DNA from: Candidatus Niyogibacteria bacterium | GTDB lineage: Bacteria > Patescibacteriota > Minisyncoccia > HO2-45-28 | Assembly: GCA_016181935.1 (NCBI GenBank) | Contig: JACOYI010000003.1 | Coordinates: forward strand, 35,741 to 99,740 | Direction of reading: 5' to 3' | Length of the DNA stretch: 64,000 bases | Part shown: positions 7,569 to 44,975 of the stretch, piece after piece | Position numbering within the stretch: the stretch's first letter is position 1 | Layout: each line of letters begins with the position of its first letter | Notes under the pieces: model-generated | Databases searched by the model: none | The model's input: only the letters and a program-made list of their open reading frames with translations | What the model was told of the DNA's origin: nothing | Made by a program: the position numbers and the translations under genes

Positions 7569-8240
7569 TTACCGCGATTTGATCTCCCAGTCAAGATGCA
7601 TCCGTGGAAGCATCATGCGGGGATTCCATAGTTTTTTGAGTTTTGAGAGTTCGTCCGAAATCTGATATTTGCCGTCCCGCGAATAATCCGTGCCCGAGAT
7701 CGGCTCCACTTCGTAAAAAACCATTTGCGCGATGCGGCGGCCGACGACAAGCGGGATCGTGAAATGCTGGGAATTGTTCGTCACTTCCATGGTCCAGCGG
7801 TTGAAATAGCCGACGTCGCCCCAGCCCGCATCTTTGCAGACCTCGATGAAATTGCGGCCGAGAGATGAACGCGCGTACATTTTACACACGGCATTGTACC
7901 GCCCGCCAATGAATTCCTGCGTATGCGCGAGAATGGTTTCGCCTGGGCGCAAAAGGATGATTTTATCGGCCGGCTTGATATTTGCGAAATTCAAATTCAG
8001 GCGCTTGGCGGTAATGCCGACTTTATCGGCGCGAAACGGCCCGCCCCAGATACGGTTGGTGGATGCTTCATCGTAGATATTGTGGATCGTATGCGCGCCT
8101 TCGGGATGGTGTTCGCGCCAGAACCAGTCTCCCAACGAAACATCGTAGCTCGTGGTTTTGAGTTTCTTGGGGTCAAAGGGATCAATGATGATGGTCCCTT
8201 TTTTCTTGTGTCTTAATATCGCATCACGCGAAAGAAGCAT
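7569..8240 (-). CDS. dcd: dCTP deaminase
   Basis: MLLSRDAILRHKKKGTIIIDPFDPKKLKTTSYDVSLG is a Dcd/dUTPase-fold N-terminus. The upstream 43 codons of the ORF-track version were judged spurious. Confidence 0.85.
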   Translation of the reverse strand: MLLSRDAILRHKKKGTIIIDPFDPKKLKTTSYDVSLGDWFWREHHPEGAHTIHNIYDEASTNRIWGGPFRADKVGITAKRLNLNFANIKPADKIILLRPGETILAHTQEFIGGRYNAVCKMYARSSLGRNFIEVCKDAGWGDVGYFNRWTMEVTNNSQHFTIPLVVGRRIAQMVFYEVEPISGTDYSRDGKYQISDELSKLKKLWNPRMMLPRMHLDWEIKSR

Positions 8241-35964: not shown

Positions 35965-36051
35965 GGAGGCGTGGCTGAGCGGTTGAAAGCGGCGCCGTGC
36001 TAAGGCGTTAAGGGGGAAACTCCTTCAGAGGTTCGAATCCTCTCGCCTCCG
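35965..36051 (+). tRNA. tRNA-Ser(GCU)
   Basis: Acceptor GGAGGCG/CGCCTCC, anticodon stem GCGCC/GGCGT (one G-U pair) with loop GTGCTAA, long variable arm, T-loop TTCGAAT. Flanked by the processing-stem-like inverted repeat CCCATAGC/GCTATGGG. Confidence 0.85.
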
Positions 36052-37893
36052 CTATGGGTTTTTAATACGCGCCCTGGGTTTTCGCCAAGATGCCGCCGAT
36101 GCTCGCAATGCGAGCTTTGGCGGGACAAGCCGTGCTAAGGCGTTAAGGGGGAAACTCCAGAGGTTCGAATCCTCTCGCCTCCGCAATCTTGGAATGTCTG
36201 CCTCGAAAGGCAGGCATTTCCGTTTATTCACGCGATATTTTTTAGGTTCGATTGCTATTGTGGTTGAAGGAAAACGATTTGCGATCATCGAATAAAAATC
36301 GAGCGGTTTTTTCAAGGAAATACTCAACTTTTCGTCTTTTAGGGTTAGGTTCGATTCAGAAAGCGACATAAAGACCGCCCGCTTCTGTTCCGGCGCGCCA
36401 TTTTCAAACCACATCCGTGCTGCAACGGCAAAATTGAAGGAGTTCTCCGCCCAATCGATCCATTCCTCAATCTTGCGACCGGTGTCTTGTTGGGCTTCTT
36501 CGAGTTGCTTCTTTTGAGCCAAAAGGGTTTTGCGTTGCGGCTCGTATTCCTCGAGCGTTAGGAGTTCGCCGCTGGCGTTTTTCGGCGATGTATAGAGTTG
36601 CGTCAAATTCTGTAATTCGGCAACAACGTCTTTATAGCGCTTCTGTTGGGAGTCGATGACCGCGTTTTGGTTTTTAACGGTCTCAACATTGTCTTTCGAT
36701 AGTTCCTCAAGCGCCCACTGGCTGAACTCTTGGGAAAGTTTGAATCCTTTGATCTCATTGTCAATGAGTTTCTCCAAAACTTCGGCGCGCATGAATTTCT
36801 GGGTGCACTTCTTATTCTTCTGCTTGGTGCAATGGTAATAAACGTAGTGGAGGATTGTCGGCTTTTTCATTTCTTCAATCCTCGTTTTGCATTGGGGACA
36901 AGCATCTTTGCTCTTGTAAGCAAATTTATATTTACACTTCGTGCAAATGAGTTGATGTTTTTCTTCTGCGGTTACCATCCCGCCGCACTCGCCGCATTCA
37001 ATCTTCCCCGTGTAGGAAAAATGGTGGTTGGTGTGCGATCTTGGCTTTCCTTTCCTGCCGAGCTTCACTTGGATACGGTCAAAGTCATCCTCGGTAATCA
37101 TGGGTGTATGCGCGCCTTTGACGAGATCGCGCTCACCTGTTTCTTCGTTCTTTACTCCAAAGTAGCCGTAGTAAAACGGCTCGGTGAGAATTTTATAAAT
37201 TGCGGAGATGGGAAGATGCCGACCGCCCTGCCGTTTTGTTTGCCGTGTTTTTAAACCCCATTTTACTATTTCTTTTTGAATCCTGCGTACTGAATATTCT
37301 TCGCTCAAGAAAAGTTGGAAGAGACGCTGCACGAGAGGGAAACGTTCGGGGTCAGAGATAATATTTCGTTCACCCTTTGGTTTATCAAGATTGTTGAGAT
37401 ATCCGATGGGTGCGATGCCGTTCCTCCATCCCTGAAGGACTTTTGTCCGGTGTCCACGTTTTACGCTTGCGATCATGTCATCGGAATACTTTTTTGCCAT
37501 GCCGAATTCTATTTGCAGGATGAACTTATCATCAGACGAATTGTAATAAGTTTTGAAAGGCGTGCGCACTTCATCAATGTGTCCTTCGTCCATCAAGGTG
37601 ATTACCCAGCCACCGTCTAAGGCGTTGCGGGCAATGCGGTTCGGCTGCCAGACAAGGAAGGCATTTATTTTGCCCTCCTCCATCATGCTCATGAGTTGAG
37701 CAAACACCGGCCTTCCCCGTTTGTGGGCGGATTTTTCCTCTCGGTAAGTGCCGAGGACTCTGAGGTTGTGTTTCTTTGCGTACTCCTTTAGTTCGCGCTC
37801 CTGCGAATCAATCGAAAGCACCTGCTTATCCTTGTCCTCGGTGGACTTCCGGCAGTAGATGACGTATTTAAGTTTCTCGTTTTGGGTTGTCAT
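36052..37893 (-). CDS. large serine recombinase (phage integrase/transposase type)
   Basis: N-terminal resolvase catalytic domain YCRKSTEDKDKQVLSIDSQ, recombinase domain, Cys4 zinc ribbon (CGECGG...CTKC...CPQC) and coiled coil. The C-terminal ~45 codons read through the tRNA-Ser fragment, so the exact stop is uncertain. Confidence 0.85.
   Translation of the reverse strand: MTTQNEKLKYVIYCRKSTEDKDKQVLSIDSQERELKEYAKKHNLRVLGTYREEKSAHKRGRPVFAQLMSMMEEGKINAFLVWQPNRIARNALDGGWVITLMDEGHIDEVRTPFKTYYNSSDDKFILQIEFGMAKKYSDDMIASVKRGHRTKVLQGWRNGIAPIGYLNNLDKPKGERNIISDPERFPLVQRLFQLFLSEEYSVRRIQKEIVKWGLKTRQTKRQGGRHLPISAIYKILTEPFYYGYFGVKNEETGERDLVKGAHTPMITEDDFDRIQVKLGRKGKPRSHTNHHFSYTGKIECGECGGMVTAEEKHQLICTKCKYKFAYKSKDACPQCKTRIEEMKKPTILHYVYYHCTKQKNKKCTQKFMRAEVLEKLIDNEIKGFKLSQEFSQWALEELSKDNVETVKNQNAVIDSQQKRYKDVVAELQNLTQLYTSPKNASGELLTLEEYEPQRKTLLAQKKQLEEAQQDTGRKIEEWIDWAENSFNFAVAARMWFENGAPEQKRAVFMSLSESNLTLKDEKLSISLKKPLDFYSMIANRFPSTTIAIEPKKYRVNKRKCLPFEADIPRLRRREDSNLWSFPLNALARLVPPKLALRASAASWRKPRARIKNP
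36130..36184 (+). pseudogene. tRNA-Ser(GCU) 3' partial copy (anticodon loop to 3' end, near-identical apart from a 3-nt deletion)
   Basis: CCGTGCTAAGGCGTTAAGGGGGAAACTCC-AGAGGTTCGAATCCTCTCGCCTCCGC lies about 78 bp downstream of the complete tRNA and inside the 3' end of the recombinase ORF. Confidence 0.75.
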
Positions 37894-40554: not shown

Positions 40555-41256
40555 ATGAATATAAACACGCTAGTCAAGAAGTTGCACATAATCAAAGATA
40601 AGGGTTTCATAAAAACTCACCGTGCTCACGATACTGGGATTGGTAAAACTCTGGAAGATTTGCTGGAAATAAAAGAAAATAATTTGCAACTCCCTGATGT
40701 CGGAAAGATTGAATTGAAGGCAAAAAGGATCGACTCGGGGAGCATGCTCACTGTTGCCACTAAATCACCCTTACCAAAAGGCGTGAATAGGATTTTATTT
40801 GAGAAGTATAAATATAGGGATAAAGAAGGAAAATATAATCTTCACTCTACCGTGTGCGGTTCGCGAACCAACAGACAAGGACTTAGGGTTGTTTTGAAAA
40901 ACGATAAGTTAATTTTGAAAAATACCTACAACGTTGAGGCATATTGGCCTCTTTCTATTTTCGATGATGTTTTAAAGAGCAAATCAAATAAGATATTGCT
41001 CATTTTTGCTGAAACAAAAGGCGAGAGAAAAACTCCAAGCGAAAAATTTCACTACAGCGAGGCCTATTTACTTTCGGGGCTTAATAGTAAAAAGTTCAAA
41101 TCTGCCATAGAAAAAGATAAACTAAAGGTTGATATTCGAATTGGGGTATATCGAAGCGGCAAATTCAAAGGACGCTATCACGATCATGGCACTGGATTTC
41201 GAATCAATAAAAAAGACTTCCTCCAACTTTTTGATCATTACAAAAAGCTCATTTAG
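40555..41256 (+). CDS. type II restriction endonuclease, MutH/MvaI/BcnI-like PD-(D/E)xK family
   Basis: LPDVGKIELKAKR is a PD...ELK catalytic motif as in MutH. LLIFAETKGERKTPSEKFHYSEAYLL and YHDHGTGFRI resemble conserved MvaI/BcnI blocks. Convergent with and overlapping the methyltransferase by 8 nt. Confidence 0.65.
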   Translation: MNINTLVKKLHIIKDKGFIKTHRAHDTGIGKTLEDLLEIKENNLQLPDVGKIELKAKRIDSGSMLTVATKSPLPKGVNRILFEKYKYRDKEGKYNLHSTVCGSRTNRQGLRVVLKNDKLILKNTYNVEAYWPLSIFDDVLKSKSNKILLIFAETKGERKTPSEKFHYSEAYLLSGLNSKKFKSAIEKDKLKVDIRIGVYRSGKFKGRYHDHGTGFRINKKDFLQLFDHYKKLI

Positions 41257-43114
41257 TTTTTCTCAGAACAACGATACTTTCTCTTGTCATCGTTTCTTCT
41301 AGCTCGCCGGCGATATTGGTGGGGGAATTTTTAATTGGCATTCTTTTGCCTGGTATATTGCGTACCACAATATTCTCACAATTGAACCCGATTTGCTCTG
41401 CGAGTTCGGCAATAATAAAATCGGTCGGTAGTCTTACTTGCTTAACTAAACGATTTCCGATAACGAGACAAAAATACTTATTTGGTTTTAATATCTGATG
41501 GGCTTTTTTAAGGCAATCATTTAGTCCGATATAAAAACTCAAAACATCTTTTGCTCTCTTGGGGTCTCGTTCGTCGATCTTTTTTAGAGAATCTTTGAGA
41601 TAATCTGACGCCAATGAATTTCTTAACTCAATGACAGGCTTACCGCCTAGCAACTTGTTGTCAACTCCGGAAGCTTCATTTGGATCATCAAACATATCAA
41701 TCCACTGTGAAGAAAGCCGTGAAAACTGACCGTAGGCGACAGTCGTTCTACTGTCTCCATAGGGTGGGGAGGTGATAATAAAATCAATGGATTCGTCTTT
41801 TATGCCGTTATCTTTTGAAGAATCTCCGTATATAATTTTTGCCCATGTGTTTCTATCAACGTCACGGTAATAACTCTCCATGCCTTTCATGTTGAGCTCC
41901 GTTCTTTTTTTAAATGTGGCTAAAACATCGGGGCTGTGATTTTCAAGATTTTCTTTTTTAATTCTCACAAGCTTAAATTCTCCGCTCTTTGTATTTGACA
42001 CTTTCCTGACAGTTTCACTAAAAGCAACCATGAAGAAATTTCGGATATTTTTACTGGAGATTTCCTGTATAGCTTTTTTTATTTTTGCCAACTCGATGAC
42101 TACTTTTTCTTTAAACCAAAATTCAACGTTATTAAATACCGGCTTCTTAATCTGATTGTTTTTAATCTCGCCGATTTTTTTTAGGAGTTTTAAATACTCC
42201 TTATTGAGAATCGCGGGGTCAATAGGGGTTGTTTTTGTTTTTGCAAGAAAGATGGCAAGTGGGTTTAAATCAATACCATGCGCATTTCGGCCTAACAGAC
42301 GACTCTCAATCAAGGCCGTGCCGGAGCCACAAAAGATGTCGCAAACCGTATCTCCCTTTTTGCTGTAAGTTAGTAAAAGTCGCCTTGCAACGTGAGGGAT
42401 AAACATTGCGGGGTATGTGTGAAAACCGTGAGTGTATGGTTTGGTATTAACTCTTTCAAAATCCCATGAGTAGTCGATCTGTCTTTGAAGTTTATGATCA
42501 GATACTTTTTCTTTCTCGGTTGGCTTTTCGAGATTTCTAATAATTCTTACAACAACACCGCGAACCTCTAACTCTTTTGTGTAAATTGGGAATAGAGTTG
42601 GATTTGCTGGTTGCAATCTGAAACGATCCTTTTCTCGATAAATCCGTTTTAGCGTTGCCTCGTTGTCATTAATAATCGCAACTACAGTTTGTCCGTTATC
42701 AGCGATGTTCTGCTGCCGAATGACAACAATATCTCCGTCATAGATTCCATCGTCTATCATGCTATTTCCTTGCACTCGTAGGGCATAATGATTGCCGAAC
42801 TTTCCAATGTCGTCTTTCGCAACTGTGATTGTTTCTGGAATTTCTATGGCCTCGATGGGCGTGCCGGCGGCAATCGTACCCAAAAGAGGAATTTTAATCG
42901 TTCTGCTGTTTTTTTCTGCCGACATCGCGCGCGGCTGGTTAACCTCGCGCTGTAAATATCCGGCTTCTTGCAGTCTCTTAACATGAAAATGCGCCGTAGA
43001 AACCGAAGCAAGTTTAAAGCGCCTCCGAATCTCCTCTAAGGATGGGGCGTACCTTTTCTTTGCGCTATATTGTTTTATGAATTCCAAAACTTCCTTTGGA
43101 CGCTTTGTTAACAT
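41249..43114 (-). CDS. LexA-like repressor (wHTH plus S24 autopeptidase) fused in-frame to an amino-DNA methyltransferase (motif I FCGSGT, motif IV SPPY)
   Basis: N-terminal ~205 aa: LTKRPKEVLEFI, HLKAL-like helix, IPLLGTIAAGTPIEA (Ala-Gly cleavage site), LRVQGNSMIDDGIYDGDIVV (Ser nucleophile), GQTVVAIINDNEATLKRIY (Lys), VVVRIIRN. The following ~420 aa carry HGFHTYPAMF...DIFCGSGTALIESRLLGRNAHGIDLNP and IDFIITSPPYG. The reading frame is continuous over 621 aa. Confidence 0.85.
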   Translation of the reverse strand: MLTKRPKEVLEFIKQYSAKKRYAPSLEEIRRRFKLASVSTAHFHVKRLQEAGYLQREVNQPRAMSAEKNSRTIKIPLLGTIAAGTPIEAIEIPETITVAKDDIGKFGNHYALRVQGNSMIDDGIYDGDIVVIRQQNIADNGQTVVAIINDNEATLKRIYREKDRFRLQPANPTLFPIYTKELEVRGVVVRIIRNLEKPTEKEKVSDHKLQRQIDYSWDFERVNTKPYTHGFHTYPAMFIPHVARRLLLTYSKKGDTVCDIFCGSGTALIESRLLGRNAHGIDLNPLAIFLAKTKTTPIDPAILNKEYLKLLKKIGEIKNNQIKKPVFNNVEFWFKEKVVIELAKIKKAIQEISSKNIRNFFMVAFSETVRKVSNTKSGEFKLVRIKKENLENHSPDVLATFKKRTELNMKGMESYYRDVDRNTWAKIIYGDSSKDNGIKDESIDFIITSPPYGDSRTTVAYGQFSRLSSQWIDMFDDPNEASGVDNKLLGGKPVIELRNSLASDYLKDSLKKIDERDPKRAKDVLSFYIGLNDCLKKAHQILKPNKYFCLVIGNRLVKQVRLPTDFIIAELAEQIGFNCENIVVRNIPGKRMPIKNSPTNIAGELEETMTRESIVVLRKTK

Positions 43115-43252
43115 GGCTGTGTATTGCTTTTTATCCCGCACTTAAAGTATAATAGAAAATAAATAGAAAGTCGAAAGTCGGGTTATCCCCAGCTTCATGT
43201 GATAAGTTCGATGGGGGTTGAAATATCCTAAAAATGTGATAAAAAATAAGAA

Positions 43253-44035
43253 ATGTTTGCAACCCAAGAAGAACAAAACAAATACATCAAAGAAACCTAT
43301 CCTGAAATCACTGATAATCGTATTGACGAAGCGCATTGGGATCTTCACTGTTCAAGATGTGAAATAACGCGAGGGTTTTTTGTTACCGAAATGGGCTTTG
43401 CCCACCAACAAACCCGTTATAGCGGCGTCTCTTTGAATCAACCACATGGATTCACATTCCATTGCCCAGTGTGCAAGTTGTATAAGCTCTGGATTGTTTT
43501 TGAGATTTCAGGCAACGAAACAAAAGAAGATGGCAGTCAGGGGTGGGTCAAGAGGTGTTACAAAGTGACATCTCTACCAAGCGAAGGATTAGAGGAGATA
43601 GAACAACTTCCAGAAAATCCCTCGTCTCTCCGCATTGCGTATAGGCAGGCAATACGGGCAATGGATGCGAATGCACACATCGCTGCTGCGGCTATGTTTC
43701 GGCGAGCGCTCCAAATCATCACGCGGGAGATTTTGAAAGCTAAACATGGATCTCTGGCAGATGAGCTAGATTCGCTTGTGGGCACAGAGTTCAACGGAGT
43801 AAAACTTACAAACAACTTCGCTACGAATGGTTACATCATTAGGGAATCAGGGAATCAAGGAGCGCACCCCGACAAAGACCCCGACTTATTGGATTTCACT
43901 CAGCAAGATGCGGAGGATCTACAGGGGATTTTCATGGAGCTTGTCAGTGAGCTTTTTATCGCGCCCGAAGCAATGAAAAAAGCTAAGCAGGAGTTTGTGC
44001 AAAGGAGGAAGATTGCGCCACCAAAAATAGTCTAA
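43253..44035 (+). CDS. zinc-ribbon N-terminal domain plus C-terminal DUF4145 domain protein
   Basis: HCSRC...HCPVC Cys pairs. C-terminus AMFRRALQIITREIL...IRESGNQGAHPD matches DUF4145 (R..LE...IR..GN..AH). Confidence 0.6.
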   Translation: MFATQEEQNKYIKETYPEITDNRIDEAHWDLHCSRCEITRGFFVTEMGFAHQQTRYSGVSLNQPHGFTFHCPVCKLYKLWIVFEISGNETKEDGSQGWVKRCYKVTSLPSEGLEEIEQLPENPSSLRIAYRQAIRAMDANAHIAAAAMFRRALQIITREILKAKHGSLADELDSLVGTEFNGVKLTNNFATNGYIIRESGNQGAHPDKDPDLLDFTQQDAEDLQGIFMELVSELFIAPEAMKKAKQEFVQRRKIAPPKIV

Positions 44036-44050
44036 GATAAAAACTTTTCT

Positions 44051-44599
44051 ATGGATATAAACGAGAAAATCGCCCCTATCTATTCAGAGCTACAAGGATA
44101 CCTTGCACAAGCGCCAGAAAAAGATAAAGAAATCTTCGTTGAAGCTGTTTGGGAACGATACAATCAAACCGTTGAGGAGCTCAATAATGTTTCTGGAAAA
44201 AACTATGATGGTTACCGTGTTCAACCAAGAAGATGGGCGAATACCACGAATCCATGTGTAGCTACTCTTGATTATCGCACCAAGCTCGGAGGAATCATTG
44301 CGCGATTACATCGAGAGTATTTTTCGGATGAAGCAGCGCCTTTCAGCGGAATGCCGAATACCGTAATCAATCAAAGTCAACACCAATACCAATCCATTCA
44401 GATGCTTCTCGAAATACAAGATAAAATCAGTGAGAAGTTTTATCAAGCAACTGAAGGTAGTAAAGAAAAAACTTTTTTGGAAAAAGTGAAAAGTTCTCTG
44501 TCCTCTGTTCGGAATGCTACGGAACTACTCTCGTTGATTATGAAAACAGCAAAAGACATAGGACTGTCGGTCGATGAACTTATAAAACTTTTTATGTAA
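44051..44599 (+). CDS. hypothetical protein (182 aa), co-operonic with the DUF4145 gene
   Basis: 16-nt gap from the upstream gene. Island codon usage. Confidence 0.5.
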   Translation: MDINEKIAPIYSELQGYLAQAPEKDKEIFVEAVWERYNQTVEELNNVSGKNYDGYRVQPRRWANTTNPCVATLDYRTKLGGIIARLHREYFSDEAAPFSGMPNTVINQSQHQYQSIQMLLEIQDKISEKFYQATEGSKEKTFLEKVKSSLSSVRNATELLSLIMKTAKDIGLSVDELIKLFM

Positions 44600-44601
44600 A
44601 T

Positions 44602-44781
44602 ATGGGAAAAGAAACATACAAGCTCAAAGTATTTTGTGTTAACTGCAATTTTAAGGGCGAGATCGAGATTCCGAAGGGGGTTGCTTACAAAAGCCAAGAG
44701 TGTCCGAACTGCGGAGTTACGGGATTGGAACGCGTGCTTGAGCCCGCAAGATTGATTCCTGATATTCCCAACTATTTTTAG
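44602..44781 (+). CDS. small zinc-ribbon protein (59 aa), below the ORF-track length cutoff
   Basis: MGKETYKLKVFCVNCNFKGEIEIPKGVAYKSQECPNCGV has CxxC-N19-CxxC. The start abuts the upstream stop. Confidence 0.4.
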   Translation: MGKETYKLKVFCVNCNFKGEIEIPKGVAYKSQECPNCGVTGLERVLEPARLIPDIPNYF

Positions 44782-44948: not shown

Positions 44949-44975
44949 ACGCCCGCTAACAGCGGGCTACGAAGA
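44949..44975 (-). terminator. terminator hairpin GCCCGCT-AACA-GCGGGC with U-run on the minus strand
   Basis: The minus strand reads GCCCGCTGTTAGCGGGCGTTTTGTTTTTG at the 3' end of the 44967 ORF. Confidence 0.5.

What the first reader, a model, noticed from the sequence alone, without database searches (positions are those of the whole stretch)
43253..44781. Tight three-gene module (zinc ribbon-DUF4145, 182-aa unknown, 59-aa zinc ribbon) beside the R-M system as a candidate novel defence operon
The three genes sit 16 nt apart or abutting. They are divergent from the LexA-methyltransferase promoter region and live inside a mobile island next to an R-M system. DUF4145 is recurrently attached to restriction, abortive-infection and other anti-phage proteins. 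Two of the three proteins are Cys4 zinc ribbons and could act as nucleic-acid sensors. None matches a named defence system that I recognise.
Basis: inference. Interest (0 to 1): 0.6.

Follow-up and report, generated by a model that had tools for sequence, protein, structure and literature searches.

The report
RAZR-like defence gene plus unrelated two-gene cassette
The three tightly packed genes are real, but they are two unrelated mobile pieces placed side by side: a divergent copy of the known single-gene anti-phage RNase RAZR (PD-T7-4), followed by a small two-gene cassette of unknown function.

Summary
The three ORFs exist as described: A 43253-44035, B 44051-44599 and C 44602-44781. The gaps are 15 nt and 2 nt. 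They lie in a low-GC island integrated at tRNA-Ser, next to an MvaI/BcnI-type R-M system.

They are not a conserved unit. None of 65 loci encoding A homologues carries B or C. None of 25 other loci encoding B homologues carries A. C follows B in only two other places. DNA homology to A's closest relatives stops at A's stop codon, and homology to the B-C relatives starts at B's ATG.

B belongs to an uncharacterised stand-alone helical family of about 500 clusters, with no enzyme fold. C is a very rare zinc ribbon.

Verdict: this is a new, divergent member of a known defence family, with a passenger cassette beside it. It is not a novel three-gene system.

The parts
43218..43247 (+). Weak sigma-70-like promoter match (TTGAAA-18-AAAAAT) upstream of A. 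It aligns with a better TTGACA-type match upstream of the closest A homologues.
   Evidence: Consensus scan and alignment with L025/L026. It is a consensus match only, and function is not shown.
43253..44035 (+). Gene A, 260 aa, a RAZR/PD-T7-4-like protein. It has an N-terminal Cys4 zinc-ribbon domain (about residues 20-108; C33, C36, C71, C74), a conserved linker (about 109-123) and a C-terminal DUF4145/HEPN domain (about 124-252) with R197-x7-H205.
44036..44050 (.). 15-nt junction between two independently conserved DNA blocks.
   Evidence: Homology to L025/L026 ends at A's stop codon. Homology to L027, L001 and L022 begins at B's ATG, 44051.
44051..44599 (+). Gene B, 182 aa, a member of an uncharacterised stand-alone family. 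It has an N-terminal helical bundle (1-95), a conserved but disordered Q-rich linker (about 96-112) and a C-terminal four-helix domain (113-182).
44602..44781 (+). Gene C, 59 aa, a CxxC-x18-CxxC zinc ribbon. Outside this element it is found only directly downstream of the two closest B relatives.
   Evidence: Translation. Homologues only in L022 (76% identity) and L027 (66% identity), each about 2 nt after B. The database search returns only the protein itself. Only sub-threshold zinc-ribbon and anti-TRAP hits.
44951..44967 (.). GC-rich hairpin (GCCCGCT-loop-AGCGGGC) between C and the convergent 117-aa gene. It is the likely end of the A-B-C transcript. No terminator-like site lies between A, B and C.
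   Evidence: Terminator scan and sequence. The scan scored it on the - strand, so any + strand function is inferred.
41249..43141 (-). Context: a LexA (DNA-binding + S24 peptidase) domain fused to a type II N4/N6 DNA methyltransferase, transcribed divergently from A.
   Evidence: Pfam, PADLOC and NCBIfam. The same fusion is called in the independent assembly L092.
40555..41256 (+). Context: MvaI/BcnI-family type II restriction endonuclease.
   Evidence: Pfam E 3.6e-44 and PADLOC REase_II.
35965..37893 (.). Context: the left end of the island, comprising tRNA-Ser(gct) and the abutting large serine recombinase.
   Evidence: ARAGORN, ORF list, phrog_95 integrase E 1.9e-65 and the GC profile.

Best explanation
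The 'module' is a composite of two independently mobile cassettes. They happen to be adjacent, and are probably co-transcribed, in one integrated element of a Candidatus Niyogibacteria genome.

**Gene A.** A is a divergent member of the RAZR/PD-T7-4 family. This is a self-sufficient single-gene abortive-infection system. By analogy with E. coli RAZR, the variable Cys4 zinc-ribbon domain would recognise a ring-shaped phage protein such as a portal. The protein would oligomerise around that ring, which would bring the DUF4145/HEPN domains into an active arrangement (R197/H205 here). These would then cleave cellular and phage RNA and halt translation.

**Genes B and C.** B-C is a separate cassette. 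B is a non-enzymatic two-domain helical protein that normally occurs alone. C is a rare zinc-ribbon add-on restricted to B's closest clade. Its function is unknown. The likeliest reading is that it is another accessory or conflict-related cargo gene that landed in the variable slot downstream of A.

**Shown and inferred.**
- Shown: architecture, fold, family membership at HMM level, and lack of co-conservation.
- Inferred: RNase activity, ring activation, and any role for B-C.
For: **The genes are independent.**
- tblastn of A, B and C against 24 GTDB loci plus one metagenome locus that encode B finds no A.
- The same search against 65 loci encoding A finds no B or C.
- All-vs-all clustering finds no recurrent neighbour for either gene.
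- Of 44 A loci with at least 600 nt downstream, 17 have a convergent next gene. The same-strand next genes are unrelated to one another: methyltransferase, AMP-binding enzyme, hydrolase, Vsr, TM + TIR, TM + MBL.
- The DNA alignment with the 90% and 83% identical A homologues loses all similarity right after A's stop codon.
- blastn to the B-C relatives starts at B's ATG.

**A is a RAZR-family member.**
- PD-T7-4 is the only PADLOC hit. It is hit by A (1.7e-4), by 24 of 32 family members (best 2.8e-8) and by more distant relatives (1.4e-10).
- The match spans A residues 31-208 and profile positions 14-157. This puts R197 and H205 on profile positions 146 and 154, the numbers of RAZR's catalytic R146 and H154.
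- The Cys4 residues are invariant, and the zinc-finger region is the most variable part of the protein, as reported for RAZR.
- RAZR is a single-gene Abi system.
- The zinc ribbon + DUF4145 fusion and its association with R-M systems were listed in 2013.

**B has no enzyme fold.**
Against: - The HMM match of the window's A to PD-T7-4 is weak (19 bits).
- No direct comparison with the RAZR sequence or structure (PDB 9Y9C, 9Y6U) could be made. PDB sequence searches and Foldseek did not return them.
- A is about 50 residues longer than the 211-position PD-T7-4 profile, with a larger beta-rich zinc-finger domain.
- In more than 90% of the A family, the position equivalent to the catalytic arginine is lysine. 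The window copy has R. RNase activity of this clade is therefore not assured.
- The AF2 model has low confidence around 203-210, the putative active-site loop.
- The tight spacing and the absence of an internal terminator mean that a local functional interaction of A with B-C cannot be excluded.
- The loci sampled are a subset: at most 80 per scan, many on short contigs.
Confidence: 0.68

Rival explanations
1. One reading: A, B and C act together as one new three-component defence system. The zinc-ribbon proteins would be the sensors and B the adaptor or effector.
For: The spacers are 15 nt and 2 nt, all three genes are on the same strand, there is no internal terminator-like site and there is a hairpin after C. 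The location is a defence or mobile island. The same arrangement appears in independent assemblies of the same element.
Against: There is no co-occurrence in any of 90 related loci. Homology blocks break at the A/B junction. A's family is a known single-gene system. B has no effector-type fold.
Confidence: 0.07
2. B-C is itself an independent, undescribed defence or counter-defence cassette. It sits in the variable cargo slot downstream of A, in the way that TM + TIR and TM + MBL pairs follow A's closest relatives.
For: Cargo downstream of the 90% and 83% identical A homologues is defence-like: ThsB-type TIR, and a TM protein with an MBL-fold protein. The B family is patchily spread, at 45-55% identity, over CPR bacteria, Planctomycetota, Omnitrophota, Thermodesulfobacteriota, Gammaproteobacteria, Bathyarchaeia and Woesearchaeota. 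This pattern indicates horizontal mobility. Some B neighbours hit defence models (SoFic, PtuA/GajA-like ATPases, methyltransferases, ShosA), and some B copies lie directly after a tRNA gene.
Against: Most B neighbours are housekeeping genes: CTP synthase, PdxA, chaperonin, pantothenate kinase, SurE, a tRNA synthetase. There is no enzymatic or known sensor fold and no PADLOC hit. C is absent from most B loci. No enrichment statistic against a background was computed.
Confidence: 0.2
3. A is a HEPN toxin, and in this genome B (with or without C) serves as its antitoxin or inhibitor, in a toxin-antitoxin-like arrangement.
For: HEPN RNases often pair with a neighbouring antitoxin (PMC3710099). The genes are tightly spaced.
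Against: B occurs without A in all 25 other loci, and A occurs without B in all 65 loci. RAZR is kept inactive by its own oligomeric state, not by an antitoxin. B is not an MNT nucleotidyltransferase.
Confidence: 0.05
4. A is not an immune RNase. Instead it is a DNA-binding or regulatory accessory of the adjacent R-M systems.
For: phrog_1305 is labelled 'DNA binding protein'. A lies divergent from an R-M operon in the window and in L025 and L026. Most family members have K rather than R at the first catalytic position.
Against: The adjacent R-M systems are of different types, and most A loci have no R-M neighbour among the conserved clusters. H205, N201, G200 and E198 are invariant, and the fold is HEPN. 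The PHROG label is an annotation, not a test.
Confidence: 0.08

Closest known systems
RAZR (ring-activated zinc-finger RNase), formerly PD-T7-4, of E. coli UMB1727 and Klebsiella variicola (Vassallo et al. 2022; Nature 2026, PMC13017515)
   Same: - N-terminal Cys4 zinc ribbon, conserved linker and C-terminal DUF4145/HEPN domain.
- Rx7H spacing of the putative catalytic pair.
- The zinc-finger region is the most variable part of the protein.
- A stand-alone gene on mobile elements near integrases and R-M systems.
- The only PADLOC model hit by A and its family.
   Different: - A is about 260 aa, against a 211-position profile.
- The zinc-finger domain is larger and richer in beta strands.
- HMM similarity is weak: 19 bits for the window copy and up to about 39 bits for relatives.
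- Most of the clade has K in place of the catalytic R.
- The hosts are CPR bacteria, Acidobacteriota and other environmental lineages.
- No trigger is known.
- Here A is followed by co-oriented passenger genes.
DUF4145 (PF13643) branch of the HEPN superfamily (Anantharaman et al. 2013, PMC3710099)
   Different: That survey describes the domain mainly as fused to restriction endonuclease or helicase modules of R-M enzymes. Here it is a small stand-alone protein.
HEPN-MNT (HepT/MntA) toxin-antitoxin systems
   Different: There is no MNT nucleotidyltransferase partner. B is a helical bundle with no such fold and is never co-conserved with A.

Membership tests
RAZR / PD-T7-4 | N-terminal Cys4 zinc-ribbon domain | tested here: met
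   C33, C36, C71 and C74 are invariant in 32 homologues. The AF2 model shows a beta-rich N-terminal domain at residues 42-108. Metal binding itself was not tested.
RAZR / PD-T7-4 | C-terminal DUF4145 domain with HEPN fold | tested here: met
RAZR / PD-T7-4 | Catalytic arginine and histidine (R146/H154 in RAZR-Ec, Rx7H) | tested here: met
   The window copy has R197-ESGNQGA-H205, with the same spacing. By the ends of the PADLOC match, these fall on profile positions 146 and 154. Caveats: H205 is invariant, but position 197 is K in more than 90% of the clade. Catalysis was not tested.
RAZR / PD-T7-4 | Sequence-profile homology to the PD-T7-4 model | tested here: met
   A scores E 1.7e-4, which is weak. 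24 of 32 family members hit only this model, best 2.8e-8. More distant relatives reach 1.4e-10. No curated cut-off exists in PADLOC.
RAZR / PD-T7-4 | Functions as a single gene with no obligatory partner | tested here: met
   No conserved neighbour in 65 loci. 17 of 44 loci have a convergent downstream gene. Homology to the closest relatives ends at the stop codon. Function itself was not tested.
RAZR / PD-T7-4 | Direct similarity to the RAZR sequence or structure (PDB 9Y9C, 9Y6U) | tested here: inconclusive
RAZR / PD-T7-4 | Higher-order oligomer that is activated on phage ring proteins and cleaves ssRNA; abortive infection phenotype | not testable with these tools
   This needs biochemistry, cryo-EM and phage assays.
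HEPN-MNT toxin-antitoxin | Adjacent minimal nucleotidyltransferase antitoxin | tested here: not met
   B and C have no nucleotidyltransferase hit. The B fold is a helical bundle.
Multi-gene defence operon (any) | Component genes co-conserved as neighbours across genomes | tested here: not met
   0 of 65 A loci have B or C, and 0 of 25 other B loci have A. C accompanies B in only 2 other loci.

The most novel reading that the evidence does not exclude
B, with its clade-specific zinc-ribbon partner C, may be a new horizontally mobile conflict gene, acting in defence, counter-defence or addiction. It may work through the strongly conserved but disordered motif 'YFSDEpAPFSGMPsTiItQxQxQxQS' that links its two helical domains, for example as a decoy or docking peptide. 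A second possibility is that the slot immediately downstream of this RAZR-like gene is a recurrent landing site for such cargo: TM + TIR, TM + MBL and B-C in the three closest relatives.
Probability: 0.15. Interest if true: 0.55.

Novelty: new member of a known kind. Interest (0 to 1): 0.3.

Why it matters
- It removes a false lead. The apparent three-gene operon should not be cloned or catalogued as one system.
- It extends the recently characterised RAZR family to a large, well-conserved environmental clade. That clade has more than 300 clusters at 90% identity and includes CPR/Patescibacteria, whose phage defences are poorly known.
- The clade has an enlarged zinc-finger sensor domain, and usually a lysine where RAZR has its catalytic arginine. 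This makes it a useful natural variant for testing how the ring-activation mechanism generalises.
- It flags an uncharacterised family B of about 500 clusters, which has no Pfam model and moves between bacterial and archaeal phyla.

Tried and rejected
**Looking for RAZR directly**
- PDB sequence searches with A, with the A profile and with the B profile gave nothing useful.
- The RAZR sequence could not be retrieved. The paper has no held supplements.
- tblastn of A against the phage and plasmid collections found nothing.

**Looking for a link between the genes, or a conserved partner**
- Profile-profile comparison of A against B showed no relationship (probability 13%).
- Pfam on the small ORFs upstream of B in 10 loci found one HTH_3 and otherwise nothing. 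There is no conserved upstream partner.
- The regions upstream and downstream of B share no DNA motif.
- The convergent 117-aa gene after C is not shared with the other B-C loci.

**Other dead ends**
- Viral contigs yielded one B locus (L091), with DnaN/ParB neighbours that were not informative. They yielded no A locus.
- No att-type direct repeat of the tRNA-Ser end was found, so the right island boundary is set only by GC content.
- The C protein search returned only the protein itself.
- N-terminally extended B relatives (P0255, P0321) were inspected by eye only. They were not searched against any family library, and they gave no obvious clue.

Full report
**1. Observation**

The ORF list and the sequence confirm three co-oriented ORFs:
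- A: 43253-44035, 260 aa.
- B: 44051-44599, 182 aa.
- C: 44602-44781, 59 aa.

The spacers are 15 nt and 2 nt. A promoter-like match lies at 43218-43247. No terminator-like site lies inside the trio. A GC-rich hairpin at 44951-44967 separates C from a convergent 117-aa gene. In this genome the three genes are therefore probably one transcript.

- A full LexA domain (TIGR00498, 177 bits) is fused to a type II N4/N6 methyltransferase (41249-43141, - strand).
- An MvaI/BcnI-family endonuclease lies at 40555-41256.
- GC is 0.38-0.47 over about 36-46 kb, against about 0.55 in the flanks.
- The island begins at tRNA-Ser(gct) and a large serine recombinase. It also holds a replication-initiator-like HTH protein.

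B and C are 100% identical to proteins of a Candidatus Niyogibacteria MAG. Two independent read-set assemblies show the same arrangement.

**2. Are the three genes a unit? They are not.**

- *Loci found through B.* I fetched 24 loci from GTDB genomes that encode B homologues, plus the contig of the closest B. tblastn with A, B and C found no A near any of them. It found C only next to the two closest B copies, L022 and L027. Inspection of every ORF starting just after B confirmed that the other loci have no C-like zinc ribbon there.
- *Loci found through A.* I fetched 63 metagenome loci encoding A homologues, plus the contigs of the 90% and 83% identical proteins. None contains B or C.
- *Neighbours.* All-against-all clustering of neighbouring ORFs found no recurrent partner for B or for A.
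- *Genes downstream of A.* Among 44 A loci with at least 600 nt downstream, the next gene is convergent in 17. It is co-oriented in 27, with a gap of 60 nt or less in 17 of these. The co-oriented genes are unrelated to one another: methyltransferase, AMP-binding enzyme, serine hydrolase, Vsr endonuclease and unknowns. In the two closest relatives they are a TM protein plus a ThsB-type TIR protein, or a TM protein plus an MBL-fold protein.
- *DNA homology blocks.* Similarity between the window and L025/L026 runs from about 60 nt upstream of A's ATG to A's stop codon and then vanishes. Similarity to the B-C relatives (74-80% identity) starts at B's ATG, 44051, and ends inside C.

The 15-nt spacer at 44036-44050 is therefore a junction between two separately inherited blocks.

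**3. Gene A**

*Sequence conservation.* Pfam gives DUF4145 at residues 132-225. The family is large, with more than 317 clusters, all carrying PF13643 and about 255-265 aa long. It spans CPR lineages and Acidobacteriota, among others. Invariant residues include C33, C36, C71, C74, the AAAAMFRR helix and the E198-x-G-N-Q-x-x-H205-P-D loop. The region between the cysteine pairs is the most variable part.

*Link to a named defence system.* The only PADLOC match is PD-T7-4:
- A scores E 1.7e-4, matching residues 31-208 to profile positions 14-157 of 211.
- 24 of 32 family members hit this model and no other, best 2.8e-8.
- More distant relatives reach 1.4e-10.

*What PD-T7-4 is.* The literature search led to PMC13017515, which renames PD-T7-4 as RAZR. 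According to that paper:
- RAZR is a single-gene abortive-infection protein.
- It has an N-terminal Cys4 zinc ribbon and a C-terminal DUF4145 domain that is a divergent HEPN RNase.
- Its catalytic residues are R146 and H154.
- It forms linear oligomers that assemble as a 24-mer around phage ring proteins (the T7 portal, and SECphi27 Gp77). It then cleaves single-stranded RNA.
- Its zinc-finger domain is the most variable part and sets specificity.

*How A compares.* In A, R197 and H205 have the same Rx7H spacing. By the coordinates of the PADLOC match they fall on profile positions 146 and 154. This step is an inference, because profile numbering need not equal RAZR residue numbering.

*Prior description.* The 2013 HEPN survey already lists zinc-ribbon fusions of DUF4145 and operon links with R-M systems.

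*Caveats.*
- The window copy's HMM score is low.
- RAZR's own PDB entries were not retrieved by any search.
- A is about 50 residues longer than the profile.
- Position 197 is lysine in more than 90% of the clade.

**4. Genes B and C**

B has 142 homologues in the 90%-clustered database. They come from CPR bacteria, Sedimentisphaerales and other Planctomycetota, Thermodesulfobacteriota and Woesearchaeota. The genome scan adds Omnitrophota, a Gammaproteobacterium and Bathyarchaeia. An exhaustive profile search finds 498 clusters at 50% identity with E<=1e-3. Nearly all are 180-195 aa with no added domains.

B's neighbours are mostly housekeeping genes. They include a few HTH, S24, AAA_15, GIY-YIG, methylase and SoFic genes. 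Two copies lie immediately after a tRNA gene.

Only one viral contig carries B, and none carries A.

C is a CxxC-x18-CxxC ribbon known only from the window element, L022 and L027.

The function of B-C is therefore unknown. The evidence shows only that it is an independent cassette.

**5. Mechanism**

The best-supported reading is as follows. A acts alone as a RAZR-type sensor and effector. Its zinc-finger domain would bind a multimeric phage ring. Oligomer curvature would then activate the HEPN RNase, leading to translation arrest. Everything after 'architecture and fold' is inferred from the E. coli homologue.

B-C is passenger cargo co-transcribed from A's promoter. The rivals are scored in the report sections:
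- a true three-gene system;
- a B antitoxin for A;
- B-C as its own defence system;
- A as an R-M regulator.

Only 'B-C as its own conflict system' keeps appreciable probability, and it is compatible with the main explanation.

**6. Novelty and score**

A is a new, divergent member of a known and now mechanistically characterised defence family. The three-gene operon is not a real unit. B is an uncharacterised family of modest interest.

Interest is 0.3. The most novel reading not excluded is that B(-C) is a new mobile conflict gene, and that the slot downstream of A is a cargo hotspot. I give that a probability of about 0.15.

Noticed in passing
window 41249-43141 (- strand); also L092 789-2654: A complete LexA (DNA-binding domain plus S24 autopeptidase; TIGR00498 at 177 bits, above its cut-off) is fused in one ORF to a type II N4/N6 DNA methyltransferase. 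The ORF's 3' end overlaps the 3' end of the MvaI/BcnI endonuclease gene by 8 nt. The fusion is also called in an independent assembly. It could couple R-M control to DNA damage or to autocleavage.
   Followed up: partly
window 43142-43252: The divergent intergenic region between the LexA-methyltransferase gene and gene A holds two exact copies of ATGTGATAA (43197 and 43234, 37 nt apart), plus short imperfect repeats. This may be an operator or may be chance in AT-rich DNA.
   Followed up: no
window 44321-44392 (B residues about 91-114): The most conserved stretch of the B family, 'YFSDEpAPFSGMPsTiItQxQxQxQS', lies largely in the linker that AF2 predicts as disordered (pLDDT below 50 at residues 100-112). 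A conserved linear motif in a disordered segment suggests a partner-binding or processing site.
   Followed up: no
L025 6788-7775; L026 6786-8175: The two closest A homologues (90% and 83% identity) are each followed, 2-4 nt downstream, by a small multi-pass membrane protein. In L025 a ThsB-type TIR protein comes next, and in L026 an MBL-fold protein. Both loci are divergent from an HTH_17 / N6_N4 methyltransferase / ResIII-helicase R-M-like operon. The position after A looks like a variable cargo slot.
   Followed up: partly
alignment A2, position 197 of A (window 43841-43843): The residue equivalent to RAZR's catalytic arginine is lysine in more than 90% of this clade. It is arginine in the window copy, in P0121 and in P0222.
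   Followed up: no
L023 about 7915-7985; L027 about 515-575: B homologues lie directly 3' of a tRNA gene end. This fits cargo at integration hot spots. An ORF annotated there in L027 (111 aa, DNA_binding_1) lies close to or overlaps this tRNA-like sequence, so its call may be spurious. This was not checked.
   Followed up: no
window 36052-37893 (- strand) and 35965-36052: The large serine recombinase ORF abuts the 3' end of tRNA-Ser(gct), and the two share coordinate 36052. No direct repeat of 11 nt or more of the tRNA region was found at 38-50 kb, so the right end of the island (about 45.4-45.6 kb) is defined only by GC content.
   Followed up: partly
L001 7533-7952: In the Saccharibacteria MAG that carries the closest B-C copy, the gene upstream of B is a 139-aa protein with a 'DTGFTGD' retropepsin-like aspartic protease motif and no Pfam hit.
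   Followed up: no
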